A stretch of DNA of 64,000 bases. Origin: Setoptus koraiensis (Eukaryota; Animalia; Arthropoda). Where the stretch lies: contig CM106586.1 of NCBI GenBank assembly GCA_048013815.1, positions 19,716,001 to 19,780,000 of the forward strand, read 5' to 3'. The notes below the pieces were generated by a model, which was given only the letters and a program-made list of their open reading frames with translations, ran no database searches and was not told the DNA's origin. Positions 25,747 through 50,519 of the stretch are shown piece by piece; positions within the stretch are counted from its first letter, which is position 1, and every line of letters starts with the position of its first letter. The position numbers were made by a program, and so were the translations under genes.

Positions 25747-27151
25747 ATCGACCGCTGACGTTCGTAGACACGCCGTGTTTGTAGATTAGCCGACCGCTGA
25801 AACTGGATCAAACGGTCTGGCGAGCGACCGTTTGGCCCCCGGCACCGTGGCAACACGCGCACACAAACAAACCAACAAACAAAAGTACACTCACTCCAAA
25901 CGAACCGGTGGGGCCCGCTCGAAGCGTTGTCGTCATCAATTGCATGCAATACATTATTCGCTACTTAGTTGAACATCCGGTGCAACATCCGCATTCAATG
26001 AGCCAATTCCAGTGCATGCTATGCCAAGACAAATAGTGTGCATTGACGAGTGACGCTGGCACGTTAGCGAAATCTTGTTGGGCCCCCCTGCGACAGCCAA
26101 CCATGTGATCAAATCGTTTTGGCCATGCTACCACAAAAGAATGATGCCATGCTAATTAATTTAATTAATTAACGCGTCTTCATTGTACAGTGCAACAGAC
26201 ACCAACAACTGCCACCATCGACTTGCATGAACCGACCGACTGACATATACATACATTTATATATAAATATATATTTTATTATTATTATAATTATTATTTT
26301 TATGACTACTATTAATATTATTATTTTATATATATCTATGACTATATATAGATAGGAGTCGCTGAGTAGTGGCAGTTACTGGCCAATGTTTATAAGCGAT
26401 CGACACGGAGGTGAGCCATTGAGTGAGCCAAACAGTCACACGGGGTGCCGCCTTCGTCGGTCGGCCGCTCGAGCAATTGAGCTCAACATTGATCTTGACC
26501 AAATTGTAGCTAAAACAAACTTCTATGTCCCCCTATGTGTGTCCAAAGATTTTAACAGAGATTTCAACAGCTAAAAAATCAATCATCAATTCTAAATAAA
26601 AGCAAATCATATCTATACAAAAATTGTATAGTGTACAAATATCGTGTCAACTTGATCGTCCAATCACTCGTTCCACAGTGACCCTTTCGAGAATCTCAAT
26701 TTGAGATATATCAGAGGCAGAGCTCAGTGAACCAATTGACAAGATTGCCAGCTGTCCGGTGTGTCCGTCAATGTCACACTATATTTTGTTTGGCATTACG
26801 TAAAATGTGACGACAAACAATCTGATCTATGCGGTCGCATCAACGAACCAATTAGCTGTTCTTGCAGCCACAATAACTTATTGTCATCAAGCACAATGGC
26901 ATTTGTCGCGCCATGAATATTGATGAGCAATCAACAATAATCGACAAATAACTACGTCAGCCATTGCACCTGTCAGAGGTTGCATAAATCCGATGTGTGT
27001 GCCAATCTGCATAACATGTCAGAATGCATGATTTATGAAATAAATAATAATAAACAGACAGATAATTTGCACGATTAACGCTACCTCTTTCATCATATCC
27101 GATTCGTGCCGTATCGGTGTTTGGGATCCTGTCGCATCATCATCAGACGAG

Positions 27152-27158
27152 TATAAAA
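27152..27158 (+). promoter_or_regulatory. TATA box of the small secreted peptide gene
   Basis: TATAAAA lies about 185 nt upstream of ATG 27339 and is followed by an A-rich UTR-like stretch. Confidence 0.5.
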
Positions 27159-27338
27159 ACAATGATCAATGTGCAAGTTCCAGCACACTAATCAAATCAA
27201 TTCACAAATCAATAGACAAGACAATACAATCGATCAAAAGACAATTAGCAAAAAGCTCGCCTAAGCAACAAATAAGCAATATCCTCATTTACAATACATC
27301 ATTTGTAATACTATACATACATAATAAACTGTGAAATC

Positions 27339-27788
27339 ATGAAGACATCAGCAGCAACCATTGTGTTGGTCTTGTCAATCAGTTTGGCCATGATTGTGAC
27401 ACCAACAATCGAGTGTACGTGCTCACTGGGTCTACTGCAGCAACTTGTCTCGTCGATATTCGGCCGTGGCGGAGCCCAGCAACAACAATTAGGCCAAAAC
27501 GGACAATCGGGCCAATATCCGTATCAGGGCATGAACGGCCTGAATGGCATGAACGGCCTGAATGGTTTGTTGAATGGTCAGCAGCAGCAGCAGGTGCCCC
27601 GATTGCCCTCAATGAACGGTCAGCAGCTGAGCAATGGACAACAAATGAACCAGTTGCCGGCCGGTGGCGGATTTTCGAATGGGGCCTCGGCTACCGGATT
27701 AGGGGGGCAATTGTCGGCGACCAACGGAGCCGCTCTGCCAGCTTTCGGCTCGTTGAATAACGGTGCCGCCACTGTGCCCGGCCTGTAA
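27339..27788 (+). CDS. Small secreted Q/N/G/L-rich protein, 149 aa, unknown function
   Basis: ATG in good context; signal peptide MKTSAATIVLVLSISLAMIVTPTIEC; MNGLNG repeats; upstream TATA. Confidence 0.8.
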   Translation: MKTSAATIVLVLSISLAMIVTPTIECTCSLGLLQQLVSSIFGRGGAQQQQLGQNGQSGQYPYQGMNGLNGMNGLNGLLNGQQQQQVPRLPSMNGQQLSNGQQMNQLPAGGGFSNGASATGLGGQLSATNGAALPAFGSLNNGAATVPGL

Positions 27789-28843
27789 TAACATCGACAA
27801 TAACAATAAGTTAGTTGTCGAGATTCGCCCAGAATGGTCAGTTGCTCACTTGTTATTTGTATACATTGTTGACATAGAGTGCTATATCGGATCGGATTTG
27901 CTTGGATCCAGCAAACGCAACGTCTACTCACACAATAAAACAGTTTACTCACAGTTTGCTACTCTTGCATAATTTGACTCCCACCCCATCATTATTCGGT
28001 TGACAACTGAGCCGCAATGTAGTCGCGCGACCATACCACACTAATTACAATTGCAATTACTAGTCATTCCTAATATAACTAGTCAGACGGGCAGCGCGCG
28101 GATACTACACTGGCTTGCCTTTTATGCGGCTTCGTTGCCTTGGTCCTATTACGTAAAACTATCCGGCTCTTGCGAACACAGCGTCTCGACGCATCCATTG
28201 CCCGTCGAGACACTATGTTTGTAACATGAGTTACTAATCAGAAATTGACTATTTTTTAGTGACCATCGATTATTCATATTTTCAGCCATTTTCACAACAA
28301 GTTGTCAGCGTACATGTGACCTATCTACGGATCTGGAAGAACGGCTTCTGGCGCACTAATTGCGCAAAGTAATCTTGATATCTTCAGTTAGAATTCTCGT
28401 CTATTTTGCGCACATTACTGCGCCAGATTGAAGCTCGCACAAAACACTTGTTAACGTCGTACGTCGCATCTACACCCACATACAGCCATACCAAAAAGGT
28501 GTACAGTTGTCGTGATGAAGCCACGCAATATACAACAAAATACTTGAAAAAAATATATACAAATATGAAGTATAAATACATTATCATGTTATGCCACTCC
28601 TCAATGATACATTGCCGCATCTCCTAATATTATTGCTAGCCATTTGTTACATCCACTCCTCCTAGCCCAAGTCCCGTCGTAATTCACGTTATCGTTATTG
28701 CCGGTGGTACACGGTCACAAGGACATCTTATCGGCCCATCGTAACTGAGATAAGATGATACTTTGTTTTGTCCAATCGCCTTATTAATTTACACTTGCGG
28801 CACAAACAACAGCAACAGTCTACTACTATCTAGAGTGGAAAGG

Positions 28844-29713
28844 ATGGCCTCACCGAAGCCAGGAGGTTTTGAAAATTTCGATTGGACGGCCTATTTTGGA
28901 TCGTTCGAAAGAAGAAAAGCGCGACCAGTGGACGAGAAAGCCTTGGATTTGAGCTCACTGCAGCCGTATATCGATGAGAAAATAGTTAAGCATTTTCTCG
29001 AGGAAGGAAAAGAGTTGCTGGCCAGAGTGAAGCAGGACGGATATGTTCGTGTCACGGGGTTGACGGCGGACAAATCGCTCAAGGCTCTCTACTATGACAA
29101 CGAGGACGAACCCCAAACTGGAAACGCGGCCCACCATAGAAAATGCGTGGCTGCCTGCGCCTACTGGGCAATGACTAGAAAATACACTAGTCAAACTATA
29201 AGGGATAATTCCAAATATGTCATCGGATTGCCGCCTGTGGTTTACATGGACGCACAAATAAAGAACTCTCTGGCCAGTCATTATGGCCTGCCCTGGTCCA
29301 CTGATCTGTACTATGTAATGAATTCCGGTTTAGAGTACATGATCCAGGAGTTTCCTTTGCAAACAACGGCTCTGTTGGCCTGGCGAGTATACCGGGGCGA
29401 ATACAAACTGGATAATAGTGAGAGAGGATTCTCCAGAGAGATGCGCCTCGTCATTGATTATCATTTTTCGCGAGCCAAGGCATTGAATCAGTCGAGACAG
29501 GAATACTTCAACAATCTGAAAGATCAAATCAAGGAATATATTGTCTATTTAGCCAAGGTACCACTTGTTCCGGAAATAAGTCCCGAGAAAACTTCCGATA
29601 AGACTTCCGAAAAATCTCGTGACAAAAGCCAACAAAGAGCGAGGACATATAAACCCATTCCAAGGCGATCCTCAAACCTGGAGGATTTGTTGTGTTGTTG
29701 TATATGTATGTAA
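28844..29713 (+). CDS. Intact ORF (289 aa from ATG 28844) resembling a bunyavirus (emaravirus/orthobunyavirus-type) nucleocapsid; candidate endogenous viral element with a C-terminal CCCICM
   Basis: NSLASHYGLPWSTDLYYVMNSGLEYMIQEFPLQTTALLAWRVYR reproduces the spacing of the NxLA ... GxE-x6-P block described for emaravirus N. GNAAHHRKCVAACAYW sits where the first N-x-x-S-x-N-x3-A motif is expected. No introns; AATAAA near 29965. The comparison is from memory, not a search. Confidence 0.65.
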   Translation: MASPKPGGFENFDWTAYFGSFERRKARPVDEKALDLSSLQPYIDEKIVKHFLEEGKELLARVKQDGYVRVTGLTADKSLKALYYDNEDEPQTGNAAHHRKCVAACAYWAMTRKYTSQTIRDNSKYVIGLPPVVYMDAQIKNSLASHYGLPWSTDLYYVMNSGLEYMIQEFPLQTTALLAWRVYRGEYKLDNSERGFSREMRLVIDYHFSRAKALNQSRQEYFNNLKDQIKEYIVYLAKVPLVPEISPEKTSDKTSEKSRDKSQQRARTYKPIPRRSSNLEDLLCCCICM

Positions 29714-30422
29714 AATAGCCAGTGGAAAACAAATATCTCACAATTGTCTGTCAATTCCAACCAAGGGTGGTTCCGGGGATCGATCCTGAATCATGAATTG
29801 AATATTACCTTGTCCAATCTAACTGTCTCGTTGTCAGTTTAACTGAATTATTTAAATTAATAATGTTTTACCAAATATCTTGTCAAATATGCTTTCGCAA
29901 CTGAATTTTTAACACAAAAAACCTCACAAATGTTCTTTGATTACTGATGAAATAGAGCAGATAAAATAAAATAAACAACTCACCAGCTTTAAAAAATGAT
30001 CTCTAAATTAGTGCATGTTTGCCTGTGCGATTCATTCAGCGACGTGCGCATTATTTTGGAAATGCATGTTGATGAATCTGTGTAATTCAATCATAAATAA
30101 GGCAGTGGGCAGCCGCCCAACGGGCAAGAATTTTGCGGGCAGTTGTCATGCCGCACCGTGCACGCGCACACACCCACACAAATCCGCGCCGCGCACTACG
30201 CCTTATTTGAACCCGCACAGGCGCCAGTGACCTGACAAAATATAAAGTATTGCAAATTCTCCCGGCAACCTTTTAGTTGGCTAGCGCCAACTAAAACAAA
30301 GGAAGAGCCCAGTTTAGTGGGTTATTGTCCGGAACACGCACCACGCCCAATTTGGGTATTTTGGGTATTATTGGGTAGTGTATTGTGCCCTGATACTAGA
30401 ATGGGTATTCCGAAAGTGCGGA

Positions 30423-32070
30423 AATTCTTCGTTTGTTCGAGGGGCGTAGTTTGATGTTCGATGATCGACGTTCGGTGATCACTATTCGAACTTCGAAATT
30501 CAAAATTCGAAATTGTTGATCGCTGTTTCTGTTTCCTGTTCGGTGGGCGTAATTCAATGTTCTCACTCACTATCACTCATCAAAACAAAAACAGGTTGGG
30601 TGGCTGGGATCTCTTCCTTCCTTGGCATTTTTCCCCTCTCTCCGTCACTCTATTTCTCACTCTGTCTCACACTTTCTCTCTCTATTTCTGTCTATTTCTC
30701 ACTTCTATTCTTAAGGTGCTGGACCCGGAAGTTTCCGCACTTCCGGACTAACTTTTCCGGTCTATTGGGGTCAAGATGTACCCGTACCGGAAGTTTCATC
30801 AAGATCAGGGCGGGTCGCTATTCGCTACACTAACCGATCGCCGTTCATGATTCATATTCGCCGGATGTAGTTGGATGTAGGATAGTCGATGTTGGACGGT
30901 CACTAATACCTTCCAAAATATGTTTCGCCATGCCCAATCTACAACTTATGGACTTGAACTATAACAGTATCATCACCCTGCCAGCCTCTTTCACTGTGAT
31001 GCCAAAGCAGCGTTTTGTCTATCTCGATTGCAATCGGTTACATTCTCTCCCCAGAGATATCGGAAATCTAAGACCGTTAGAAGAGCTGCATTTGGTCTTC
31101 AACAAGATTAGCGAAATTCCCTATTCATTCAGGGAATCAGTAAATCTTAAAGTCCTGGACATGCGCTGCAACCCAAGATTCGAAATTGATGATCGTCATT
31201 TCTGTTTCATGTTCGATGGACAATGTTTTATGTTCGATAGTCGACGAATAGGTTGGGTAGCTGGGATCTCTTTCCACCTTGGCATTTTTCCCCTCTCTCC
31301 GTCACTCTATTTCTCACTCTTTCTCTCTCTATGTCTGTCTATTTCTCACTTCTATTCTAAAAGTGCTGGACATGCTCTGCAACCCAAAATTCGAAATTGA
31401 TGATCGCCGTTACGGTTTCGTGTTCACCGGACGAAGTTTAATATTCGATGGTCAAAATTCAGGGGACTATTCGAACTTCAGAATTCAAAATTCGAAATTG
31501 ATGATTGACGTTCCTGTTTGATGTTCGGTGGACGTAGTTTAATGTTCTCACTCAATATCTCTCGTCTAAAATAGGTTGGGTGGCTGGGATCTCTTTCACC
31601 CCTGGCATTTTTCCCCTCTCTATATCACCCTATTTCTCGCTTTGTGACTCCCGATCACTCTATTTCTCACTCTGTCTCACTCTTTCTCTCTCTATGTCTG
31701 TCTATTTCTCATTTCTATTCTTGAAGTGCCAGACATGCGCTGCAACCCTGAATTCGAAATTGATGATCGCCGTTTCTGTTTCGTGTTCGGTGGGCGTAGT
31801 TCAATGTTCTCACTCACTATCACTCGTCCGAAATAGGTTGAGTGGCTGGTATCTCTTCCTCCCATGGCATTTTTCCTCTCTCTCTCCATCACGCTATTTC
31901 TCACTCTGTCTCACACTTTCTCTCTCTATGTCTGTCTATTTCTCACTTCTATTCTTAAGGTGCTGGACATGCTCTGCAACCCTAAATTCGAAATTGATGA
32001 TCACTGTTTCTGTTTCATGTTCGGTGGGCGTAGTTTGATGTTCGATGATCGACGCCGAATAACAGAGACA
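30423..32070. repeat. About 4 dispersed-tandem copies of a 230-360 bp unit (AGGTTGGGTGGCTGGGATCTC + CT-rich tract + KVLDMxCNPKFEIDD-coding segment)
   Basis: The AGGTTG(G/A)GT(G/A)GCTGG motif recurs near 30593, 31250, 31572 and 31835. Each is followed by a CT-rich tract and GTGCTGGAC/TGCCAGAC near 30716, 31363, 31726 and 31960. Confidence 0.85.
30930..31250 (+). pseudogene. Leucine-rich-repeat gene fragment (about 4 LRRs)
   Basis: PNLQLMDLNYNSIITLP / FVYLDCNRLHSLPRDIGNL / RPLEELHLVFNKISEIP / VNLKVLDMRCNP follow LxxLxLxxNxLxxLP. There is an in-frame stop at 30831 upstream and the frame runs into repeat DNA downstream. Confidence 0.6.
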
Positions 32071-32144
32071 TGCTCAAATCAATTCTATTTTCATATTCAT
32101 TGAACACAATACATGATAGCATGTAATACTCGAAACATAGACTT

Positions 32145-32236
32145 GTCGAGATTTTGTACTGTCGAGATATTATACTGTCGAGATTTCATACGTCGAGATA
32201 CTGTACGTCGAGATTTTGTACGTCGAGCAAACGTCC
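32145..32236. repeat. Six 15-16-nt units GTCGAGATTTTGTAC(T) ending in GTCGAGCAAACGTCC; possible subterminal array of a foldback/Mutator-type element
   Basis: Units start at 32145, 32161, 32177, 32192, 32207 and 32222. The transposon origin is inference; no partner end was found. Confidence 0.6.
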
Positions 32237-32726
32237 CTGTCCCCTTTCAACTGAGTGGCTACGGGACAGTTGAAAGAGCATCACAAAAGTTTGCACCACA
32301 AAATGAGTGCATTTCATAGTCTCTCTCTCTCGGCCTTTGTCTGTCTTCTATTACTTTTTGTTTTCCTTTTGTCTCTTCCATTTTTCTATCTTTTTTGTTT
32401 GGCTTTGATGGGTGCTAGAAAAAGACTGATCAACGTGATTCGTTGATCAGTCTTTGCCTACAAAAAGAATCAGCCTACAAAAAAGATAGAAAAATGGAAG
32501 AGACAACAAGAGAACAAAAAGTAAAACAGTCCAGAGAAAAGCTGCAAGAAATATTGCCGAAGAAGAGGCCGGAAGAGAGACGATTCACCCCCTTCAAGTT
32601 AATCAATTGGCCGTGGCCTACATAGAGATGTTGGAGTCGATTATAAAAAGTAAAAAAGGAGTCGACGAGTTTATGGAAGAGATTGGCCCGAGAGGAAATA
32701 CGGAGTTGTTTTCAATGGATGTCAGT

Positions 32727-33060
32727 CTCAGTGTCGAAGTTCATAGAATTTGCAAACGAGATGGAACAAACACCGGAACTAGAGAGCTATGCGACAACCA
32801 ACATAATCAACGAGTGTTTGGATAGTTTTGAAGGCGTAGACGATGTGAGAGATATGAAGAAATTAGTTGAAGCACTGCAAGCATCATATTCTGTGTGTGA
32901 GAGCAAATTCATTTCAAAAAAATGTTTTACTTTTACAGTCGCAGGGTGCGTTTTTTTTGTCCACCCAAAACATTACGGAAGGACCATGGATTGCTTCCAT
33001 TAACTTCAGAGATATTTGGTGAGAGTATTTTAACATTGAGTATGCAAATAGAATGGAGAG
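32727..33060 (+). pseudogene. 3' portion of a paralog of the 33183-34259 orphan gene (frameshifted, lacking its 5' end)
   Basis: SVSKFIEFANEMEQTPELESYATTNIINECLDS...LVEALQASYSVC aligns to SVSKFIEFANEMEQSPELDSETTTKIIEECLNS...LVEALSEFHSVC. After a frameshift in the A7 run near 32916-32922 it continues MFYFYS...DHGLLPLTSEIFGESILT. Confidence 0.85.
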
Positions 33061-33182
33061 CAAAAACGAGACCCTTTGATGGCGAGAGCTCGAAAATGTT
33101 CAAGCCCTGTTTCTATTTATATCATATCATATGAATTATATGAATAAAAGCCTCATATCATGCACCAAGTGTCTCAGTGCGC

Positions 33183-34259
33183 TTAGTGAGATTTATGTTT
33201 CAGCTTGTCCAAACCTTTCTTGAGCCAGGCTGTTATTGAATGATGATCTTCCGGATCGTCTTCGTGCGATTTGTAATTGCATTGAAGATCAGGGTCGATG
33301 TCATTGAATTGATCAGCCAGTTCAAAGACCTTTGGCGCTGCATGCTCCTCAAATATCACCAAGTCTTCGTACATTTCTAATGGGAGTGTTGTCAAACGTG
33401 TACCACGACAATATTGAATAGTTTTGAGCCAGCGTCTGACTATTTGACTATTCTTCAATTTGTCATCGATAACATGGTTGGTGTCGCTGGCCCTGAAACC
33501 ATGGATAGCTAACCTCTCAATAGGATGGGTCGAGCTTTGCGCGTAACTATCTATCAATTTGCATGATCGCTTGAGATTCAAAAACTCTTCTCTCTCTCCG
33601 TCGGCGAGAATGTGATGGCTCGAACAGCCAGTCGCCAACGTTCTATCTTCAATGAGGCTCTCTGGTAGAGCAACTTTTGACGGATCGAAACACTCATAGA
33701 TCGTTTCACGGATAAGTTGATCATTCTCCACAACATCGAGGCTCTGTTTAACAGCCTCGTCTGATCGTTCTGCTTGCTCTAATTTTGTTTCAAGGTTTCT
33801 TTTGCAGGTTAAAACGACCTGACCGAATATGTTAAAAGTTAATCGGCGCAATCCATGTTCCTTTTTCTTATCTACGGGTACATAACTATATCTGCTCAGA
33901 CGATCGTAGTAAAAATATAACATTTTTGTGAGAGGCTCATCTCCACACACAGAGTGGAATTCGGACAACGCCTCAACCAGGTCTCTCAAAGCTCTCACGT
34001 CTGTCACGGCTCCTCGACTGTTCAAACACTCTTCGATTATTTTGGTTGTCGTCTCGCTGTCTAGTTCTGGTGATTGTTCCATCTCATTAGCAAATTCGAT
34101 GAATTTTGACACTGAGTCGAGAGATTTTACTCTGTCTATGCAAATTGTTTTCGATGATGTCCACAGTGTTCCCTCGCCATCCGCGGCTGAGCTGCCAGGC
34201 AGAAAACCACCGAAGACGCCGACGATCAGTAAAAAGTATGAAACTTGTTGTACCGACAT
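33183..34259 (-). CDS. Orphan secreted Cys-containing helical protein, 358 aa, intronless
   Basis: Signal peptide MSVQQVSYFLLIVGVFGGFLPGSSA; upstream TATAAAAA (34343-34336 on the minus strand); long uninterrupted non-repetitive ORF; no family recognised. Confidence 0.85.
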   Translation of the reverse strand: MSVQQVSYFLLIVGVFGGFLPGSSAADGEGTLWTSSKTICIDRVKSLDSVSKFIEFANEMEQSPELDSETTTKIIEECLNSRGAVTDVRALRDLVEALSEFHSVCGDEPLTKMLYFYYDRLSRYSYVPVDKKKEHGLRRLTFNIFGQVVLTCKRNLETKLEQAERSDEAVKQSLDVVENDQLIRETIYECFDPSKVALPESLIEDRTLATGCSSHHILADGEREEFLNLKRSCKLIDSYAQSSTHPIERLAIHGFRASDTNHVIDDKLKNSQIVRRWLKTIQYCRGTRLTTLPLEMYEDLVIFEEHAAPKVFELADQFNDIDPDLQCNYKSHEDDPEDHHSITAWLKKGLDKLKHKSH

Positions 34260-34867
34260 GTTAATCTGAATTTGTATCTAAGAATTAGTGAAAGACTCAC
34301 AACTTTTAGAATAATATTGCGGCTAATCTCATCCCTTTTTATAGCAGATAAAAAATGTTCACTTAAACAAACGACAAAGGAAAACTCTATTTTTAGATTG
34401 CGATATTATCACTCGATGAGCATGAGCATTATGAGAGGCAACATTCCAAATATTTTAGAAATTTTCAATCGGAAATGACGATTCTGTTTGGAACTATTGA
34501 AAATAGCTCTTGTTGAACAGTTTTCATCACTTGTGATACATGGAAACTCCACGAAAATGAAATGTTTCGGCCTCTATTCTGACTGAGTTGGAAATTTATC
34601 ACAATGATATTGTGATGAAATGTTGATATCGCAATCTAAGAACACAGTTTTTCCATGTGGTGAACATTTTTTATCTGCTATAAATAAGAATGAAATTGCC
34701 GGCCGTATTAAATTTATTCCAAAGGTTGTGTCTGAATTATCATCCATTTAAGTGGAATGAAAAGATCATTCAAACATAATCTTTGGAATATATAATCATG
34801 GAGTGACACTCATTTAATTTTTTCGACAATAGTCTTCTACAATTCTTCGATGCAAATTCAGCTTAGC

Positions 34868-35014
34868 ATGTCAGTACAACAAGTGTCATACTTTTACTGA
34901 TCGTTAGCGTCGGTTGCTTTCTGCCTGGCAGCTCAGCTGCGTAAGGTGAGGGAAAACTGTGGACATCATCGAAAAGAATTCGCATAGACAGAGTAAAATC
35001 TTTCGACTCAGTGT
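34868..35014 (+). pseudogene. 5' fragment (first ~50 codons, plus duplicated promoter from ~34626) of a paralog of the orphan gene, in inverted orientation
   Basis: ATGTCAGTACAACAAGTGTCATACTTT...CTGTGGACATCATCGAAAAGAATTCGCATAGACAGAGTAAAATCTTTCGACTCAGTG closely matches the gene's start but has a 1-nt deletion and a TAA. The promoter (GAACATTTTTTATCTGCTATAAA, GATATCGCAATCTAA) is mirrored at 34336-34406 versus 34626-34685. Confidence 0.9.
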
Positions 35015-35347
35015 AGTGATCGGGGGAGGTATATCCCCCCGAAATGAAACGGAGAGGTGGGAAGGTCTTCCTCCTGCCCCCCCAAAATGAAATCGGAAAG
35101 GTCATCCCCGTTCCAGTTTCAGCTAGTGTCGGAGAAAACACTTGTAGAACAAATCAATGCAAGTATTGATGAAATCTGATATCATCTGAGAGCCCTGGCC
35201 TGTGTCTTTGATTTATACTGGAAGGGATTGGGGACCCCCTGTTTTTTTCGGCAGGTAAAAATGCCTCCCCGGGAAGCGGGAGGCTCTCAGCTCCCGCTGC
35301 CCGTTTCGAAACGAGGAGAAAAACCTCCGAACCTCCCCCGATCACTA
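35014..35347. mobile_element. 334-bp MITE with perfect 17-bp terminal inverted repeats (TAGTGATCGGGGGAGGT), hAT-like termini
   Basis: TAGTGATCGGGGGAGGT at 35014-35030 and its exact reverse complement ACCTCCCCCGATCACTA at 35331-35347; internal direct repeats CCCCCC(G/A)AAATGAAA; no coding capacity. The two 8-bp flanks do not match each other. Confidence 0.8.
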
Positions 35348-35793
35348 GATTCGCGTGCGTTTTCAATCATCAAGCAACAGTCTCGATCGATGTGCAATTT
35401 ATCAATTGATGAAGAATCCAAAAGGCAGCCCTCTCCTACACTGTGGAAAATAAAATAAAAAAAAATCAAAATAAAATCCAGTTTAAACAGTGCAGCCAAA
35501 TCTTTTATCATGCAGCGTCAATACTGTGCGATGTGTGTACAAGCATTCATGCGATGAATGGCCGGAAGAGGCTCGAGTGACAACAGCGCCTATTTTAAAC
35601 GAAATGTTCACTTGTTTTTCGGCATATCGTCAATGTCGATGAGATATTCGAATCCGGTTAGAAACGCGTTTATGGTTATCTCGATAGATGTAGAGCGATA
35701 TGTCGGACAGCGAGGTTTAGACGACGCGTATAATCTATCAAAAAGCACGAGCAAAAAGCACGATCAAAAAGCCAACTGGCGCGAGCACAACCA

Positions 35794-37611
35794 TCATTGC
35801 AGCTTTATTCGGCCGATAAAGTTGTTCATAACGGACAATAGATACAGGTAACGGTGTGTAGTTGATGTTTTGGCGTCTGTTTCGTTGGGGCCATTTGAGT
35901 GAACTGTATTATTCGAAGCAAAACTGTTCTGCTCGACAGGTGACGACAAGCTGGTCGCGCCAAGCTTGATAGTGTCGGCTGTGGGCAGCAGTAGTTCTCG
36001 AAGTTCAGTGGTGGTTTTCCACACGGAGTTCTTCTTGGTCGATTGCAACGAGCGCAAAACATTTCCGTCCTTGTCAAATTGAATGGCGATACCGTGAGGA
36101 CACATGACGGTGCCCAACTGCCACACGTTCCGATGGACGTATCCGAAGTCGGCAATTGTGGCCGAACGCAAAACGCGCTGTCCCAAAAACTCTATTAAGC
36201 CAGCCGACATGGAGGTGATTTTGAGAATTAGTCGCGCCACAATTGGCTGCTCCAAGAGATAATTGATGACGGTAAATTTGCCCTCCTCCACCAGGGCACA
36301 ACCAGTGCCCACCCAATAGGTCTCGCGGTGCGGGTCGGCGCCCCGTTTTATATTGTCTGGCCAGCCGGGCGACCAGGCAAACAGTTCGGTGGTGCCCTCT
36401 TTTGGGCCGTCAACATAATGTTTCAGTATTCGTGCCGAGCCAAACTCGTTGATTAGAAGCGTCTGACGATCGTCCATTAGCTCGATGCCATTTGGAAATA
36501 TAATTTTGCGCCCGCTATCATCGACGAAATCACTTTTCGTGTCATTATTATCGAGTCCCTTCGGATATCGGACAGTCGTAATGTCGTTCAGAATTGTTAT
36601 TTGTTGACTGTGCGTGTCATAACGTAACAGCCTGCCGGTGGCCTCATGCTCCGACATGGAAAACACAAACTGTCTAAATGTCCACTTGGCGCTAGCGTCA
36701 GTGAGATAAATAATGTCGCCACCATTTTGGCCCCCGTGCCAATCAACCGCGAGATCGTCTACGAGAAGAATGCGCGAATTGTTTGTTTGTTTCAGCGATT
36801 TGTGCGACTGTCTGGCGTCTATCAACAGGGCAACTTGTCGCATTTGTTCAAACGCCATCGACTGGGCGCCTTTTTCGAGGGATAAACCGGCGGGCACCAT
36901 GGGCTTTTTCAGGTCCACACGTAACAGGCCCATCATTGGGTCCACCACGTACAAGTAACTCTCGTCGGGCGACAACCGCAAGCCTAGAGGGCGCGAACAG
37001 CGCGAATACAACACGCGCTCCGGCGAGTACCTCGCTTGTTCGCCATACAACTGCACGTCGTCGTGACAAAAACTGTTATAGTTGTTGTTGTTCGTTTCCG
37101 GTTGCGAGTCGATGTGATCGGCTCGATTGGCCCGATAAAGTGTCAAGTTGCTATTTAGACTGGCCACCGTTGTAATTGTGTCCCTATGTGTGTCAACGTA
37201 CACGATAAAGCCACCCTCTACGCCTGTGTAAAAGTTTCCGGACGCGTCAGGGGCCGACGCCTCCGGTCCGTTGAATTTGCCCCTGAACAATATTTCCGCT
37301 TTGTCGAGCTCGTCGTTGAGTGCCAAATTTTCAACAAACAATGGCTTTTTGATGAAATAAGGCGGCAATCTGGGCTCAACTTGAGGCAGAGGCACATAAT
37401 AAATCACTATGAGCAACAATGGGCTTGCCATCAAAAACCAGCTCAGCTTATTGATGGCACGAATGCGGTCGGGAATGTTCGATCTTGCCATGTTCACATA
37501 CAAATCAGGTTGTGCAGTGTGGGTGTTTTTCAGTTGAGTCCACTGGTGCTTTCGGTCACTTTTTTTGTCTTCATTGAGTGTTCCGTTGTTTCTCGTCACA
37601 TCGATCGCCAT
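35794..37611 (-). CDS. Strictosidine-synthase-like / adipocyte plasma membrane-associated protein (APMAP/hemomucin family), 605 aa, intronless
   Basis: ATG at 37611 (the track's TTG start follows a TGA). Type II anchor LSWFLMASPLLLIVIYYVPLP; GPEA...FYTG; CSRPLGLR; IYLTDASAKW...EATGRLLRYD; FPNGIEL; PGWPDNI. Confidence 0.92.
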   Translation of the reverse strand: MAIDVTRNNGTLNEDKKSDRKHQWTQLKNTHTAQPDLYVNMARSNIPDRIRAINKLSWFLMASPLLLIVIYYVPLPQVEPRLPPYFIKKPLFVENLALNDELDKAEILFRGKFNGPEASAPDASGNFYTGVEGGFIVYVDTHRDTITTVASLNSNLTLYRANRADHIDSQPETNNNNYNSFCHDDVQLYGEQARYSPERVLYSRCSRPLGLRLSPDESYLYVVDPMMGLLRVDLKKPMVPAGLSLEKGAQSMAFEQMRQVALLIDARQSHKSLKQTNNSRILLVDDLAVDWHGGQNGGDIIYLTDASAKWTFRQFVFSMSEHEATGRLLRYDTHSQQITILNDITTVRYPKGLDNNDTKSDFVDDSGRKIIFPNGIELMDDRQTLLINEFGSARILKHYVDGPKEGTTELFAWSPGWPDNIKRGADPHRETYWVGTGCALVEEGKFTVINYLLEQPIVARLILKITSMSAGLIEFLGQRVLRSATIADFGYVHRNVWQLGTVMCPHGIAIQFDKDGNVLRSLQSTKKNSVWKTTTELRELLLPTADTIKLGATSLSSPVEQNSFASNNTVHSNGPNETDAKTSTTHRYLYLLSVMNNFIGRIKLQ

Positions 37612-39737
37612 TGATATTACTCGTTCAACCAACAATCACGGTAGTCAAGGTAACCAGTTACAACTTCTTGCCGCCGGCATATCTCACATACATAATTTAT
37701 ACATGCTTATTTCGTGTAAACTACAATTGTTTTTGTCGATTGCCAGCATCTCGTCAGACTGTTGAGGAAAAACGTCGATCGCATTGGTGCCATGGTTACT
37801 CCATGTCTTTTTTTTTTCTTCTGTCTCTCATGAAAGTATTTTTGAAATCCGACACTCGCTATAAACTCGCTTTGGCAACCCTCAAACTCCGTCTAGAGCA
37901 TGGCTGGCAGCATTGCGTCTTGACTGTTTTTAGCGCTGATGCAAAATGAACAACAAAACTGACGTTCATCGATACTTATAAAAAGCTCTCCCCCCGCTCG
38001 TCCAAGGTAGGCCGGGTATTGTAAACGCCCCGTTGTTTTTCGTGTTGACCCGAACAATCGAGCCGGGTCCCAGCAGTCTCTGGACGATTCTTTGAGCTGT
38101 GCTGCAGTGCCATTCTGGTTGATTTCGGCCAACTGAGCTTGCTCGATGTATAACGCAACAGCTCTGGTGCTAATACAATCGACCATTATGGTGGATTGGC
38201 GTGCTTGTCCGCGGGCACCCGGACAATCCGCGATGCAAGGGCGATACTTGCATATAAGCGATATATCAACTCTTTTCTGACATGTCCACGGTCTTGCAAG
38301 CTATGTGCGGATTATCCGATTGTGTGACGTGGTTGGCTCGATCTCGGCGCCCTGTCAATTGTCGCTCTCTCTGTCTATCTCTATCTCTCTCGCGCTCACC
38401 ACAAGTCTTTGGCATCAGTGCAAATATTGATTCAACGAAACTTTTTACATGTGCAACATTGTTAGCATGGAAGCAATAAAAAAGTTACTTTCACCTGAGT
38501 CCTTCTCTTTGTTTGTCTGTCCGCCAACACACTTGTGTTTTCTGCTTGTCTATCGCTGACAGCTCACTGTTACGTGAACAACACATAAGAAGCTCTCCAG
38601 CTAGAGAGTAAAAGCTCTTATCGCGATATCCATTTTATACATGCATCATTTTCATAATGTACCCAATGACTTTGACATGACAAGCTACGTGTGATGGCTG
38701 ATTCAGAGCTAAAAGTATCAGCAGCAATGTCACATGTCGGTCTCACGAAAAATCATTTAGTGGTTATCTACCGTAGCACTTAGGCAAATTGGCCTTTTTG
38801 CTACTTTGAACTCGCTATTTACTAAATAGTATTTAGGCCAAAACTACCAGGATACGTCTTTTAGACCATATTTGTTTCATTGAGAACATCAGATTTCAAC
38901 CTTTTCTGTTTTAAAAACAAAAAAATAAAGTATTTTCTCATGAATCCCTCCATGACATAGTTCAACAAGATGTCGAATAAGAACGTCAATTCATGAATTT
39001 ACGGGAGTGAGGGATATTTTCTCACCACGGGCAGCTCCCATCTCAACCCCCGTCATAGACCTGGGCTGGTTTCCTCCCGTCAATTTTTCACCTGATCACT
39101 AATTTTGACTGGCAAGAACCGAAAAAACCGTAAAATCGTTTGCATCGCATAAAAACTGAATTTGAGTAGTTTCAAGCACCGAATCTGTTCTCCCTACTGA
39201 TCAGCGATCGAAACAATGCACAGCTCTTGGCATGTGATCGGTATTCATCGATGGGAGAGTTGTTCGTTGGTGATTTACTTTCCCTTTAACTTTAATTGCT
39301 GTGTGACAATTTTAATGGGTTCGCACAAGGTGGTGAATTGTGACAAAAACAAAGATGATTCGCTGGTATCCATCAGAAGTGTCTGTTTGTGAACTCGTAG
39401 TCCCGACACAAAGTCGCTAATTTTCTCTTGATGAAGCTTCAGTCATCTTGCCCAAATATTCTCCGGCTCTAAATTGTTTGTTTGTTCTAACATCTCATTG
39501 TTACGAATTTGAAATATGTGTGAATTTGTGCCACTTGCATCCGTCCAACCATCCAACTAAGACTAGGTTTTTAGCAGAGAATAAGCTACGGTATTAAAGT
39601 TATCCTAGCCTTATGTGAAAGTATTACCACCAGTAGCAAAACTTGCTAACTATTAATGCTGTTTTACAGCATAATCGGCAATTCATTGAGCGAAACTTGT
39701 GGTAGCCGGTCAAGAAAATCAACATAACATTGCTACG

Positions 39738-41359
39738 ATGAACGGGATTCTTTTGTTGGTCGGTATTTTAGCATCATTTATTGCTACATTTATAATCAAG
39801 AGGCATCTTCTTATCAAGAAATACGTACAAGGCAGTCACATCCCTTTCTTAAAGCCCAGAAGTTACATCGTGGGTAGTTATAGGGATTTAAATACATCCA
39901 AAGAATCTATTGCGAATAGAGTGGAGAAATATTTCAGATTAAAAGGAGACACTTATGGCGCATTCTTGGGAGAAATGCCCTATGTTTTCACAAAAGATCT
40001 TGACCTTTACTGCAAAATATGGGTCACAGACAGCCACAAGCATATTGACAGGCCGTTCGTTGGGGCCTACACAGGCTACAATGATGTGTCACTTTTGCAG
40101 GCCGAGGGTGATGTTTGGCGAAAAACACGTCGAGCAATCGGATCAACCATGACGTAAGTTAGCCGGCTTCAACATTTTTTTTAGCATGATCATGATCAAT
40201 TCCTTATAGTTATTGATAACACAAAATTTCCCACAGACTATCGAAACTGAAGCTGGCAAACGTAGAGAGGGACGTCGAATATTGTCTCAATAAACTGATG
40301 GCCAGTTTAGAGAGACGATCGATGCAAGTCACAAGTGATGATAAGGTTCAATCACAAGAAACAAAAAAGAGTTCCGTTACGGTAGAGTGTTCTAGCATGT
40401 TCAAGAAGTTTATTATGGATTTATTCATGAATGTAGCCTTTGATAGACCCGATCAGATTGATTATGATGCCGATGACAACGAAATTATCACCAGCGCTGT
40501 AAACATTATGAAGAAGAGCTACAGTCCGGCTGTCATGTTGACATTATTTATACCTCAGTTGGCGCCTTTTTTACGTATTGTAATTCGACTATTTAAACTG
40601 AATCGTTTTGTTCAGTATTTGTATGACATTGTCGATACCATAATCGCTAAGACTGAAGAGGATCCCAGATTAGGCCAGGCAAGAAGCGACAGAAGAGTGA
40701 TACATTCATTGTTGGATTTGTATAAGGGTGGTCGTCTCACCAAAGACGAGCTTCAATCTAACGTATTTTTTATGCTTATGGCCGGTTGGGACACAACAAG
40801 TGATTCATTGACTGCCTTGATGTGGCAGTTAGCTATGCATGCCGATGTTCAAGAAAAGTTGCGCAATGAAATAATGAAAGATGGCGTTGAATCTGATTAT
40901 CTTTCCTGGGTTATGAAGGAATCACTTCGGTTGAACCCGCCAGTTACAACTGCGCGCCTGATCAACGAAGACTTCCATTGGAAAGGATACAGGATGATGA
41001 AGGGCATGGTTCTCATTATGCCCACCTATTCATTGATGAGAGACAAAAGGATCTGGGGCAATGACGCCGATCAATTCAAGCCAGAACGCTTTGATTCAAA
41101 CAACAATACACAGCAGCATCCATATCAGTATGTTGCGTTCGGTTTGGGGCCGAGAAATTGCGTTGGATACCATCTGGCAATGATCGAAATGAAAATGACC
41201 ATTTGCAAAATATTGATGAATTACACAATTCAGGCCGCACCTAACACGCCAAAAAGCTTGATACTAAAAGAGGGCACAGGTTCGGTTTTCTTTATCAACA
41301 TATTAAAGGACAAAATGCCATTGGAGTTCGTGCCACTGCACATCACGAATGATGATTAA
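39738..41359 (+). CDS. Cytochrome P450 (CYP-A, CYP3-clan-like), 2 exons, 512 aa
   Basis: Exons 39738-40153 and 40237-41359 (AC|GTAAGT...ACAG|A). N-terminal TM anchor; WRKTR; MAGWDTTS; KESLR; PERF; FGLGPRNCVG heme motif. Confidence 0.95.
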
Positions 41360-41966
41360 TCAGTAGACGCAGCGGTCAGTTGAGTACCGATGAAGGAAAA
41401 GAAAACAATAATAAAATAGTATAACATGGAATTTAAACTAGTTCTGAAATACTCGATGCATCATTATCTGATCTAGCATTTATTTGTCTTGCATCTATCA
41501 ACCCAACTTTTCCGATGCCGCCGCAAGAGAGAATCTAATGTCCACCGGCTGACATGCATTCATTCTTTCTTCCAAAGAAAGAGTGTCAGAAAAATTTTTA
41601 CCGGCACTCTTTCTTCGGTGCCACTGATTTCCTCATAAATTGATGCAAAGAAAAACTTGTTGTGCTAGCCGAATTATCCACAACTTGTCGCCGGCAAGAG
41701 AAGTACCAATATCTGTTTCTACAGACACATAGATGATTTGTCTCATGCAATTACGCAGTAATTATCGAGATTGAATATATTCATCAACAAGGGCATTCAA
41801 CGAACAACGTACATTAAAACGCAAACCATTGAATTCTAGTGAGCATATACAAAGAAGAATAATGATGATAATATCTCATCACTTCATTGAATCCACAATG
41901 TTTCTCGAAATGTGTCGCGAAATTCTTCACCGCTCGAAGATAAGAAAATCTATATCCAAACTGCAC

Positions 41967-42491
41967 CTACCAGTGTGAATCCGCTATACTAGCGAACCAG
42001 TCGTCGTCGTCGTGTTCTTTCAGAGACTCTGGATCAGGTAGTGGCTCATAGTTAAGATCGGCGATCCAAGCGAAGTCATGATGGATTCTCCGATCATCTT
42101 CTTTAATCTTCTGCCTCAATTTTTCGATCTCGTCTTTATGAACCTCCTTGTCTTTAGATTCTAAAGAAAGTATTTTGCGATACATTTCTCTCTGTTCCAA
42201 TCTCAAATCTTGGATTGAATGTCGAGCTGCGTTCATTTCATCGTTCCATTGTTGATCTCTATCAAGATCGCTGTAGTCAATTTTCTCATTTGCTGGTCTA
42301 GTGTAAACAAAGTCATAGAGTAGTCTCTCATCGTCCCAAGGCTTCTTTCTAGAAATTTCGTGCTTGAGTTCCACCAAGCCCTTCTGGACAAGTTCGTCGA
42401 AGGTGTACGGTTCCCAATCTGCAAGAGCATTGACAAACTCTTGAATGAAAATCGCACCTAGTACCAATAATGCTAATGTGTATGCTGCCAT
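41967..42491 (-). CDS. Orphan secreted, highly charged helical protein, 174 aa, intronless
   Basis: Signal peptide MAAYTLALLVLGAIFIQEFVNA; D/E/K/R-rich body without Cys; no family recognised. Confidence 0.8.
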   Translation of the reverse strand: MAAYTLALLVLGAIFIQEFVNALADWEPYTFDELVQKGLVELKHEISRKKPWDDERLLYDFVYTRPANEKIDYSDLDRDQQWNDEMNAARHSIQDLRLEQREMYRKILSLESKDKEVHKDEIEKLRQKIKEDDRRIHHDFAWIADLNYEPLPDPESLKEHDDDDWFASIADSHW

Positions 42492-43115
42492 TTTATCGTT
42501 TTTAAGAGATTACTCATCAGCTCTTGAGGACTTTTAGAAACATTCACTTGTCACTGCAATTTCTGATATGATTTCGGTCATATTTCAGTTGTGATCAGCT
42601 ATGTGATTGGTAAAATACAAAACTGAAATGTAAAAACACGAGTCCGTTCGAACAGCTAAAATTAGAAACTCAAAATCTACTCTTGTGACATGTAACTCTA
42701 TTTAAGCTGTAATTTAGTCACCAAAAACCACACGCGACGAATTTGATGGAGAAGGTCTCTCAACGAATTATCGAATATTAGTCAAACTCTTCACTGTTTC
42801 TCACAATGTTAAAAGGTTCATTCATTATCAATTTAATTGTATGATTGTTCGATATGCTAATCAGAAATCAGTCTAGATTATGAGGGTGTTGAAAGTAACA
42901 GGTGTAAGGATGGGGTCTGTACACTGGTGGTCCCAAGTATACGAGCCAGATGATTTTCCTAGATGACATTTCTGCTCATAGGTATGAATATTTACGCTTG
43001 TGACCTTCCTACGATCTCATAAGCATCACTGATTATGGTTATTACGTGAAAATTTCATTCACCAGAGAGCAACTCTATTTCAATTCTTCGCTTAATATTT
43101 TTTATTGATATTTTT

Positions 43116-46026: not shown

Positions 46027-46899
46027 TTTGGCGAATTTTTCATTTGTTTAGTTACTTGCCATTCTGTTTATATCATTCAATATTGTCAATCAAAGAATTT
46101 ACAGCTGAATCAATTCCTGATTGTGTTCTGATTGCTCAAAAGTGAGATTCCCGCCAGACTGCGAGTAGATGTACGAGAGATAGGGAGAGAGAGAGGCTTG
46201 AAGACAAATTTGAAATTTCTGACACCTGCAAAATGAGGGAACAGTTTTCTATCAGGCGTTCGACATCTATGCCTAGTTTGGAGATTTTCTTTGGAAATCA
46301 GTAGAAAGAAACTCGCTGAGGTAGGCAACATAAATAACTTAGCATTCAAACGAACGGGCTGTCAAATAAATTTAGTGAACAGGTAAGCTGCTAGCTCTAG
46401 ACATATTTAGCGAGAAATTAGTTTCCAAAATGTTAAGAGTCGTCACTCAGTCAATATTAGTCCGTGACTAAGCGAAAAGATGATATACAGTCTCGGATAT
46501 TTTTTCCGCAATAGACAACAACATCCTGATTGAGCGCAATCTAACCAATAAAAATCTATTTTATCATTGGACACAAGTAAGTACATCTCAAACGAAACTA
46601 TCTGTTTGTGTCATGTTTTCCTGCAATTGCATGCGAACGCTACTTAACAACAGCGCTCTTCAATGAACTGTGAGTTACTGCTGACGCTAATTACTGAGAT
46701 ATTGTTGTCTTACCTTAAAAGAGTGCCTTGTTTCAGGGTCGGCGGTGGTATTTCGTTGTCCACATTTTCGGCTGATTCTTCACAAACTCCCCCCCCCCTA
46801 GAACATCGCTGGCCTGAGCTGGCATACCGAGCTGAAAGTAGTTGGGATGAAGACATGCAAAAATTGAGAATTAATTAATCAACTTCATTGATTGAAAAG

Positions 46900-48596: not shown

Positions 48597-48834
48597 CCAC
48601 AGAACTGATTGGGCAGACATGTTGCGTTCAGACAGGAGAATGATGGCTAGTTTGAAAAATCGATTTAGTATTCATCACACGCAAAGCAATCAGCAGACAA
48701 ACAAACGGAAACACGAAATAAACATAAGACAGTTTTCGGCAGATTTTTCGAAATTTTTCTGTTTTTTTTTTTCTAAATTTTTTTTTCGAAATCTTTTTGT
48801 TTTTTTCTTCGAAACTTTTCTTCTTCGAACTAGA

Positions 48835-48999
48835 CTAGACTTTGGGGGCGCTTCTGCGCGATTCATAAGCCACCTTTGCTAGGTTCGTGAGTTTTTTCGC
48901 GTTTGCCTCGCCTGTTGCGGCCACCATGTTTGCGAAGATGCCGCCGGAAATGGCCAGAAGTTGGTGCGCTCCGTCCGACTCCACCATGACGCCGGCGTT
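48835..48999 (-). other. Possible 3' end of an unidentified coding sequence cut by the assembly gap
   Basis: 55 open codons from the gap edge: NAGVMVESDGAHQLLAISGGIFANMVAATGEANAKKLTNLAKVAYESRRSAPKV*. GC-rich, coding-like codons, unlike the surrounding DNA. Confidence 0.3.
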
Positions 49000-49001
49000 C
49001 A

Positions 49002-50235
<1,234 letters not shown>

Positions 50236-50519
50236 TCCCGACCAGTTCCCTAGCTGCCCAACTTGCGCAACTCGAGCCAGCGAACGGCGCGTTCCTCCTG
50301 TGTGGCCGTTCGTGCCATGCGACGCGCTCGCGTCCGTCGATTCAGCTCGATTTGATTTGATTCCATGCGATCCGATTATTAGTGTGAGGCTCGGTTTGTT
50401 TGGCGCACGTTGCCAAGCGATCGTATCCCATTGCCGGGCCGGAGCGACACACACACGCCAAGTGACGTGAATACATTTCGCTCGTCATTCGCGCGCTCCA
50501 TTCGTGTGGCAGTCGCTTA

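What the first reader, a model, noticed from the sequence alone, without database searches (positions are those of the whole stretch)
28844..29713. Intact bunyavirus (emaravirus-like) nucleocapsid-derived gene with an added C-terminal lipidation tail: candidate domesticated viral gene in a probable virus-vector mite
Seen: an uninterrupted, non-repetitive 289-aa ORF with NSLA (29264) - SHYG - 13 aa - GLE-YMIQEF-P-LQ (29327-29362) - TTA - LLAWR - VYR, preceded by GNAAHHRKCVAACAYW. It ends in a 12-nt-period stutter (EKTSDKTSEKSRDKS), a basic patch and LLCCCICM*. Known: emaravirus N proteins carry NxxSxNxxxA, NxLA and GYEF / GxE-x6-PxE motifs, orthobunyavirus N has a related NP(L/I)A..G..W...PG.E block, and emaraviruses are transmitted by eriophyoid mites. 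Inference: a negative-strand RNA virus N gene integrated, kept its frame and gained a CaaX/palmitoylation-like tail (C-I-C-M plus upstream Cys). Such a protein could tether to membranes and trap or poison viral ribonucleoproteins as a host restriction factor, or affect vector competence. The motif match is recalled spacing, not a computed alignment.
Basis: partly seen in the sequence, partly recalled or inferred. Interest (0 to 1): 0.88.

Follow-up and report, generated by a model that had tools for sequence, protein, structure and literature searches.

The report
Lipid-tailed viral nucleoprotein gene in mite
A mite chromosome carries an intact copy of the RNA-wrapping protein gene of an unknown relative of mite-borne plant viruses, ending in a cysteine-rich tail predicted to anchor it to membranes, and the mite likely keeps it as its own gene, possibly as a decoy that would jam the assembly of incoming viruses.

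Summary
Observation confirmed. The 289-aa ORF (28844-29713) is a bunyaviral nucleoprotein (N) of the fimovirus/peribunyavirus fold: Pfam Fimo_NCAP above cut-off, family profile to fig mosaic virus N E=2e-11, structural Z 15.1. It is integrated: one contig from another study joins it to a host gene at single-copy depth. The host is an acariform mite, probably eriophyoid. It is only 16-20% identical to emaravirus N and belongs to a cluster of ten unnamed N-like proteins, at least six on 5-25 kb contigs, so probably also endogenous. New here: a 66%-identical homolog ends in the same CCC-I-x-M tail after a poorly conserved linker; the other eight lack it. The viral C-arm helix is not predicted here but is in a tail-less relative. 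Best reading: a domesticated, lipid-anchored N decoy (about 0.4 for the full antiviral mechanism, about 0.6 for domestication). Main rival: young insertions of a virus whose own N ended this way (about 0.28). Synteny, dN/dS, transcription and lipidation are not shown. The scan's earlier notes hold nothing like it.

The parts
28844..29713 (+). Intact intronless ORF, 289 aa, derived from a bunyaviral (fimovirus-related) nucleoprotein gene
28844..28942 (+). aa 1-33: N-terminal arm-like segment (FENFDW..YF); 22 of 33 identical to P0002, and similar words occur in P0003; that it is the N-arm is inferred from position
   Evidence: FMV N-arm described in PMC10269810
28943..29557 (+). aa 34-238: two-lobed N core; keeps basic residues shared across the family (K63, R69, K77, R99, K100, R181)
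   Evidence: 150 of 205 identical to P0002
29123..29152 (+). Emaravirus N block 1 equivalent N94-x2-(H97)-x5-A103; 2 of 3 residues match
29264..29362 (+). Emaravirus N block 2 equivalent N141-L143...G162-E164...P171-(Q173); 5 of 6 residues match at the published spacing
29558..29647 (+). aa 239-268: proline-containing, low-confidence linker where FMV N has its C-arm helix; holds the in-frame 12-nt stutter and is 17 aa longer than in P0002
29648..29710 (+). aa 269-289: conserved tail YKPIP..SSN..EDL.CCCI.M, ending in a CaaX-type box (C286-I-C-M, 29699-29710) with two adjacent Cys (284, 285) as candidate palmitoylation sites; lipidation is predicted from motif only
   Evidence: 16 of 21 identical to P0002; Cys at -4 in 2 of 133 stored proteins, these two
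28571..28576 (+). TATAAA 273 nt upstream of the ATG; candidate promoter element, consensus match only
29965..29970 (+). AATAAA about 250 nt after the stop; candidate poly(A) signal, consensus match only
27339..27788 (+). Upstream neighbour: Q/N/G-rich ORF with a signal-peptide-like start, taken as a host gene; on the same 3172-nt contig as the N ORF in run X3

Best explanation
This is an intact gene, integrated in a mite genome, for a bunyaviral nucleoprotein fold whose C-terminal arm is predicted to be replaced by a flexible linker and a cysteine tail; the mite likely domesticated it as a lipid-anchored decoy that would bind viral RNA or nucleoprotein at membranes and block assembly of related viruses. 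Steps. (1) Shown: N fold and motifs, integration beside a host gene at single-copy depth, open frame, and a second protein that conserves both core and tail but not the linker. (2) Inferred: a cDNA of the N coding region was inserted (no viral termini remain) in an ancestor shared with the carrier of P0002, and selection has kept it. (3) Predicted from motif: C286 is prenylated, and C284/C285 are palmitoylated, tethering the protein to the cytoplasmic face of ER/Golgi or plasma membrane. (4) Inferred from structure: it keeps the basic RNA groove and an N-arm but cannot donate the C-arm that drives N-N polymerisation. It would therefore join a growing ribonucleoprotein and cap it, or hold viral RNA on membranes. 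Steps 3 and 4 are untested.
For: Fold: Foldseek top 7 are FMV N, then La Crosse and TSWV N; VIA Z 15.1 to FMV N, 12.4 to orthobunyavirus N, at most 4.4 for unrelated rows. Integration: X3 contig 27198-30369, depth 139.7 against 132.5 for the next contig, 1 differing letter; the one listed change in the ORF, 29188 T>A, is a third-position Thr codon change, so silent. ORF pieces are near-identical in runs of 4 studies other than the possible source (X3, X5, X7, X10). Constraint: identity to P0002 is 150/205 in the core, 2 of 13 aligned in the linker, 16/21 in the tail (tail vs linker p=0.001 with boundaries chosen by me). The 17-aa length difference keeps the frame. Columns conserved in the other eight relatives are more often identical, 45/52 vs 102/148, p=0.017. 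If the 30% divergence had built up neutrally in hosts, 3 of 1000 simulations would stay free of stops. The tail is restricted to the P0001/P0002 clade (100/99). AlphaFold gives no helix after aa 237 here but a 25-residue C-terminal helix (259-283) in tail-less P0003, folded from the same ten sequences. In orthobunyavirus N the C-arm is described as the main driver of oligomerisation (PMC3675483, passages); in FMV N it is a 33-residue amphipathic helix (PMC10269810). GC3 0.51 and CpG ratio 0.96 lie inside the host-gene range of the window, 0.43-0.66 and 0.77-1.21. Precedents: ground-squirrel EBLN inhibits bornavirus polymerase (as cited in PMC10636211); a CaaX box targets OAS1 to viral RNA-rich membranes (PMC7612834); FMV N agglomerates are wrapped by ER (PMC10269810).
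Against: Orthology of P0001 and P0002 is not shown: the DNA around P0002 could not be read, so there is no synteny and no dN/dS. All the conservation patterns would also arise during viral evolution before two separate insertions. No free-living virus of this group was found, so its natural C-terminus is unknown. The tail's LEDLLCCCICM could be a short hydrophobic C-arm on a long linker: without trimming, VIA aligns the model out to residues 269-279 against the C-termini of orthobunyavirus and TSWV N, though at pLDDT below 50. Both predicted C-terminal regions are low-confidence. Block 1 Ser and block 2 final Glu are not kept. At 16-20% identity to emaravirus N, co-assembly with known plant viruses is doubtful, so the target would be an unsampled virus. 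The best-studied insect bunyavirus N capture, odin, is transcribed only antisense and did not clear its virus (PMC6620529).
Confidence: 0.4

Rival explanations
1. Young, possibly neutral insertions. P0001 and P0002 are separate captures from two related, unsampled mite viruses whose own N already ended in CCC-I-x-M, either as an unusual C-arm or as a viral lipid anchor. The frame is open because the insertions are recent.
For: Captures of this virus group look frequent: of nine relatives, six lie on contigs of 5-25 kb and three on 2.1-2.9 kb, against 1.2-1.4 kb for an emaravirus RNA3 (PMC12596537). P0007's cluster has four intact copies within a few substitutions, as expected of a young insertion. 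Near-zero variation across runs gives no proof of selection. The conservation pattern follows N structure, which viral evolution also produces.
Against: Eight of ten family members lack the tail. A viral N without a C-arm helix should polymerise poorly (PMC3675483). No viral terminal motif is left in the window (1 match at 2 mismatches, 2.28 expected). Base composition is host-like, though the source virus's composition is unknown. I recall no lipidated bunyaviral N (recall), and one search listed none.
Confidence: 0.28
2. Domesticated, but not antiviral: a membrane-tethered, sequence-independent RNA-binding protein used in the mite's own cells, for example to localise or store RNA in the germ line or salivary glands.
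For: Same evidence of constraint and tail as the best explanation. Co-opted non-retroviral elements with cellular roles exist: human EBLN-2 is mitochondrial, bat EBLN binds RNA, and planthopper ToEVE14 affects development (PMC10636211, passages). Thirty per cent divergence from its only close homolog would erode a fit to any one virus.
Against: No expression or tissue data. The N-arm-like segment is conserved (22/33), which fits retained N-N contacts better than lone RNA binding (inference).
Confidence: 0.22
3. RNA-level element: the locus serves as a piRNA/siRNA template against the cognate virus, and the open frame and tail are incidental.
For: It lies about 500 nt from a high-copy repeat cluster (30238-32230). 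An eriophyoid has PIWI/AGO3, Zucchini, Armitage and Maelstrom (PMC7738191, passage). Odin is antisense-only.
Against: A small-RNA role needs no full ORF, in-frame indel or conserved terminal residues. TATA and AATAAA-like words flank the sense strand (consensus only).
Confidence: 0.08
4. Assembly artefact or contaminating viral sequence.
For: None found.
Against: An independent run carries host gene and ORF on one contig at the depth of its flank. An RNA virus segment would not appear at single-copy depth in such a contig.
Confidence: 0.02

Closest known systems
Fig mosaic emaravirus N (Fimoviridae; PDB 8AX4/8AXF; Pfam PF25629)
   Same: Two-lobed core, motif blocks at the same spacing, best structural match (Z 15.1, 205 aligned, rmsd 4.4)
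   Different: 16-20% identity; encoded in host DNA without viral termini; the 33-residue C-arm helix is not predicted, and a linker plus CCC-I-C-M tail stands in its place
odin, phasmavirus N captured by the phantom midge Chaoborus americanus (PMC6620529; parts 1 and 3 of 6 read)
   Same: Arthropod capture of a bunyaviral N coding region, fixed in populations
   Different: odin is tandem, close to its living virus and transcribed antisense only; here the copy is single, belongs to a different bunyaviral fold group, and has a C-terminal motif shared with a 66%-identical homolog
Endogenous bornavirus-like N (ground squirrel EBLN, human EBLN-2, miniopterid bat EBLN; as cited in PMC10636211)
   Same: N-derived host ORFs acting at protein level: dominant inhibition of the virus, new localisation, or retained RNA binding
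   Different: Mononegaviral N in mammals; no lipid anchor described in the passages read; function shown there, untested here
Prenylated OAS1 p46 (PMC7612834, passages)
   Same: A C-terminal CaaX box brings an RNA-binding antiviral protein to membranes holding viral RNA
   Different: A cellular dsRNA-sensing enzyme with no homology; analogy only
Planthopper NlToEVE14 (PMC10636211, passages)
   Same: Arthropod non-retroviral EVE co-opted as a protein
   Different: Totivirus-derived, with a developmental role shown by knock-out

Membership tests
Fimovirus nucleocapsid family (Pfam PF25629) | Score above the gathering cut-off | tested here: met
   30.5 bits vs 27, aa 32-184; 9 of 10 family members match at E<=0.1
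Fimo/peribunya/tospovirus N fold | Two-lobed core superposable on solved N structures | tested here: met
   Model pLDDT 76.8; Foldseek E 6.8e-6 to 8axf; VIA Z 15.1
Fimo/peribunya/tospovirus N fold | C-terminal amphipathic arm helix for oligomerisation | tested here: inconclusive
   No helix after aa 237, 5 Pro in 51 residues; control P0003 shows helix 259-283; both regions low pLDDT
Emaravirus N | Published conserved blocks N-x2-S-x5-A and N-x-L...G-x-E...P-x-E | tested here: inconclusive
   7 of 9 residues at exact spacing; S and last E not kept
Genus Emaravirus (as source virus) | Placement inside the genus by RdRp/N phylogeny; multipartite genome with conserved termini | not testable with these tools
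   No named emaravirus N sequence was stored for a tree; identity 16-20%; terminal motif not above chance in the window
Non-retroviral endogenous viral element | Contiguity with host DNA at host depth in independent data | tested here: met
   X3 contig 27198-30369, depth 139.7 vs 132.5
Domesticated (co-opted) EVE gene | Intact ORF | tested here: met
   the only listed change inside the ORF is silent
Domesticated (co-opted) EVE gene | Orthologous, syntenic copy in another species with dN/dS below 1 | tested here: inconclusive
   66% homolog on a 12.8-kb contig whose DNA could not be read; none of 3 other-organism or same-study runs gave a piece in the ORF at 80% likeness
Domesticated (co-opted) EVE gene | Sense transcription and translation | tested here: inconclusive
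   No holder is on record as RNA; a guessed-RNA run holds a 241-nt piece inside the ORF; contigs give no strand
CaaX prenylated / palmitoylated protein | Cys at -4 from the C-terminus, aliphatic a1, Met at X, upstream Cys pair | tested here: met
   CICM and CIFM, each preceded by CC; motif rules from established knowledge
CaaX prenylated / palmitoylated protein | Actual lipid modification and membrane localisation | not testable with these tools
   needs metabolic labelling
Eriophyoidea (host) | Placement with named eriophyoids | tested here: inconclusive
   Drosha groups with 11 unnamed proteins (SH-aLRT 100), apart from named Tetranychus, Brevipalpus, Halotydeus, Leptotrombidium and Astigmata; 27 of 120 listed hits used; no named eriophyoid listed. 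The intronless 3.2-kb Drosha ORF fits genomes with 75-84% intronless genes

The most novel reading that the evidence does not exclude
Gall-type mites have repeatedly captured N genes from an unsampled, mite-resident sister lineage of the plant emaraviruses. One capture, shared by at least two species, swapped the polymerising C-arm for a prenyl/palmitoyl anchor and became a membrane-bound chain terminator of viral nucleocapsids: a restriction factor built from the virus's own coat and aimed by a lipid, a design I found no report of among endogenous viral elements.
Probability: 0.35. Interest if true: 0.88.

Novelty: new variant of a known kind. Interest (0 to 1): 0.72.

Why it matters
Protein-level co-option of non-retroviral viral genes in arthropods has few proven cases (PMC10636211). 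This one offers an unusually direct test, because the proposed innovation is a four-residue motif. The group of ten N-like proteins is also a fossil record of an undescribed fimovirus-related lineage, at least in this case inside a mite genome. That bears on whether emaraviruses descend from mite viruses and replicate in their vectors, a question still being probed by titre studies (PMC13102888, abstract). If antiviral, it would be a candidate determinant of which mites tolerate or carry such viruses.

Tried and rejected
No whole genome is held for this window, so paralogs and other viral segments elsewhere in this genome are unknown; within the window there is no second N-like copy. DNA around relatives: 2 scans of viral contigs and 2 of metagenome contigs found none, so there is no synteny and no dN/dS for P0002. 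Runs X12, X14 and X16 gave no piece in the ORF at 80% likeness; this says nothing about more diverged orthologs. Expression: no RNA holder is listed. X10 (a guessed RNA run) covers only 241 nt of the ORF and short repeat scraps in 27100-47099. X7 and X10 show almost no depth on the high-copy repeat at 30238-30771 (0-0.45, against thousands in X3 and X5). That pattern would suit RNA libraries, but missing cover proves nothing and I do not count it. X7 differs at 11/353 and 5/381 letters in upstream pieces, against 1/491 and 1/373 in ORF-overlapping pieces; the upstream contigs have depth 3.3 and may hold errors or another haplotype, so this is not counted either. ESM Atlas gave no usable hit for P0001 or P0002. 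Single-sequence PDB search was not significant (8ax4 at E 0.12); the profile was needed. Complex prediction (homotrimer) was not available, and the wide VIA search and the VIA run on the P0003 model could not be queued. The family tree resolves only P0001+P0002 (P0009 left out of 94). Rejected: cellular-family origin (no cellular match above Z 4.4); contamination; a described emaravirus as donor (identity too low). Literature: listings of searches show no paper on fimovirus-like elements in mite genomes or on a CaaX-tagged endogenous nucleoprotein. I saw titles and abstract starts only, and the library lacks most subscription papers. The A. lycopersici genome paper has 0 uses of 'viral' and 3 of 'virus' in its main text, and the F. 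perrepae preprint has none; their supplements were not read and could list such genes. FMV N RNA-contact residues are in a figure and a supplementary alignment that I did not see, so groove residues are inferred from family conservation.

Full report
Observation. The + strand holds an open frame from ATG 28844 to TAA 29713, 289 aa. The conserved blocks published for an emaravirus nucleoprotein (PMC6603204, passage) fall on this protein at identical spacing, 7 of 9 residues, with the same 47-residue distance between blocks.

What it is. Pfam Fimo_NCAP matches above its cut-off (30.5 bits vs 27, E 3.2e-7). An exhaustive HMMER search of 1.84 billion representatives returned 9 relatives: P0002 (71% over matched stretches; 66% by BLASTP), P0003 (39%) and seven at 23-32%. 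All are unnamed and come from run assemblies. A profile of the ten hits fig mosaic virus N as the only match among 177,635 PDB sequences at E<=1 (2.2e-11). The AlphaFold model (mean pLDDT 76.8) matches FMV N first, then La Crosse, TSWV, Leanyer and Schmallenberg N. VIA gives Z 15.1 for FMV N, 10.6-12.4 for orthobunya- and tospovirus N, 5.7-6.8 for hantavirus N, and at most 4.4 for unrelated chains. In BFVD, ranks 1-24 are all bunyaviral N, emaraviruses mixed with peribunya-like viruses. Identity to FMV N is 16-20%, so the donor was a relative of the fimoviruses, not a described emaravirus. I could not build a tree with named viral N proteins.

Where it is. The window encodes Drosha, Frizzled, P450s, an NRF-6-like acyltransferase and a LIM protein. 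After one atypical insect entry at 52% identity, the best named Drosha hits are acariform mites at 68-71%. A tree of 27 of the 120 listed hits puts it with 11 unnamed proteins (SH-aLRT 100), apart from all named mites. With an intronless 3.2-kb Drosha and the reported intron poverty of eriophyoids (PMC7738191 passages; bioRxiv 10.64898/2026.08.24.746826 part 1 and passages), an eriophyoid is likely but not shown. Eleven of 17 listed runs, from 6 studies including the possible source, hold the stretch or part of it. In X3, from another study, one 3172-nt contig runs from 27198 to 30369 across the upstream ORF and the N ORF at depth 139.7, against 132.5 for the adjacent contig, with one differing letter. 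The listed change 29188 T>A, also in X7, is silent. The element is therefore integrated, single-copy and widespread in this species. No viral terminal motif remains, and GC3 and CpG are inside the host-gene range.

The tail. P0002 ends CEDLICCCIFM where this protein ends LEDLLCCCICM. Identity is 22/33 in the N-terminal segment, 150/205 in the core, 2 of 13 aligned positions in the linker (with a 17-aa in-frame length difference) and 16/21 in the tail. Only these two of the ten family members, and 2 of 133 stored proteins (120 of them Drosha homologs, so a weak background), have Cys at -4. By established rules, C-a-a-M with adjacent upstream cysteines is a prenylation-plus-palmitoylation signal; this is a motif prediction. 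In FMV N the C-terminal 33 residues form an amphipathic arm that docks on the next protomer (PMC10269810, parts 1-3 of 6). In orthobunyavirus N this arm is called the biggest driving force for oligomerisation (PMC3675483, passages). Our model has no helix after residue 237, whereas tail-less P0003, folded from the same ten sequences, shows a helix at 259-283. Both regions are low in confidence. Family-conserved basic residues K63, R69, K77, R99, K100 and R181 are kept.

How it likely works. A viral N cDNA was inserted and kept open, and the arm was replaced by a linker and lipid anchor. The product would sit on membranes, where FMV N is reported to gather against the ER, and would bind viral RNA or accept a viral N arm without passing one on, capping nucleocapsids. 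Precedents are EBLN inhibition of bornavirus polymerase (cited in PMC10636211) and CaaX targeting of OAS1 (PMC7612834, passages). Confidence is 0.4 for this whole chain and about 0.6 for domestication of some kind.

Against. The flanks of P0002 could not be read, so orthology is open. If the divergence had arisen neutrally in hosts, only 3 of 1000 simulated frames would stay free of stops, but divergence among viruses before two separate insertions explains the data equally. Captures look common: six of nine relatives lie on 5-25 kb contigs, and one has four near-identical intact copies. No free virus of the group was found. The hydrophobic tail might be a short C-arm. The closest precedent, odin, is antisense-only (PMC6620529, parts 1 and 3 of 6). 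Transcription is not shown: no holder is on record as RNA, and one guessed-RNA run has a 241-nt piece inside the ORF.

Novelty. Endogenous N genes and a few co-opted ones are known. Listings of seven literature searches showed no fimovirus-like element in a mite genome and no lipid-anchored endogenous nucleoprotein. The scan's own notes hold nothing similar. Verdict: real, a new variant of a known kind, interest 0.72.

Noticed in passing
proteins P0003-P0013: Eight further unnamed fimovirus-like N proteins on contigs of 2-25 kb, too long for most to be viral N segments; probably a wider set of endogenous copies from an undescribed virus lineage. Hosts unknown. P0007's cluster has four intact copies that end right after the core, without any C-arm.
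   Followed up: partly
window 33183-34259 (-): 358-aa ORF with a signal-peptide-like start and no Pfam match. Depth in X3 is several times single-copy, with many diverged contigs, and partial copies lie at about 32700-33000 and 34900-35010: an expanded orphan secreted family, a candidate for salivary proteins.
   Followed up: partly
window 30238-32230: Cluster of 100-200 nt repeat modules, very high copy in runs X3 and X5 (up to about 400 times single-copy depth in X3), interleaved with a leucine-rich-repeat fragment at 30930-31400.
   Followed up: no
window 32326-32549: 73-nt inverted repeat (82%) enclosing a 20-nt near-perfect hairpin at 32416-32460; MITE-like.
   Followed up: no
window 35794-37611 (-): Intronless strictosidine-synthase-like (hemomucin/APMAP-type, name recalled) gene of 605 aa.
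   Followed up: no
window 39738-52061: Tandem cluster of three cytochrome P450 genes; 40298-41359 and 50883-52061 are near-identical and flank an assembly gap and T-rich run at about 49000-50080, so one may be a haplotype or assembly duplicate.
   Followed up: no
window 2038-5211 (+): Drosha is a single 1057-codon ORF and forms the deepest branch of an unnamed long-branch mite clade.
   Followed up: yes
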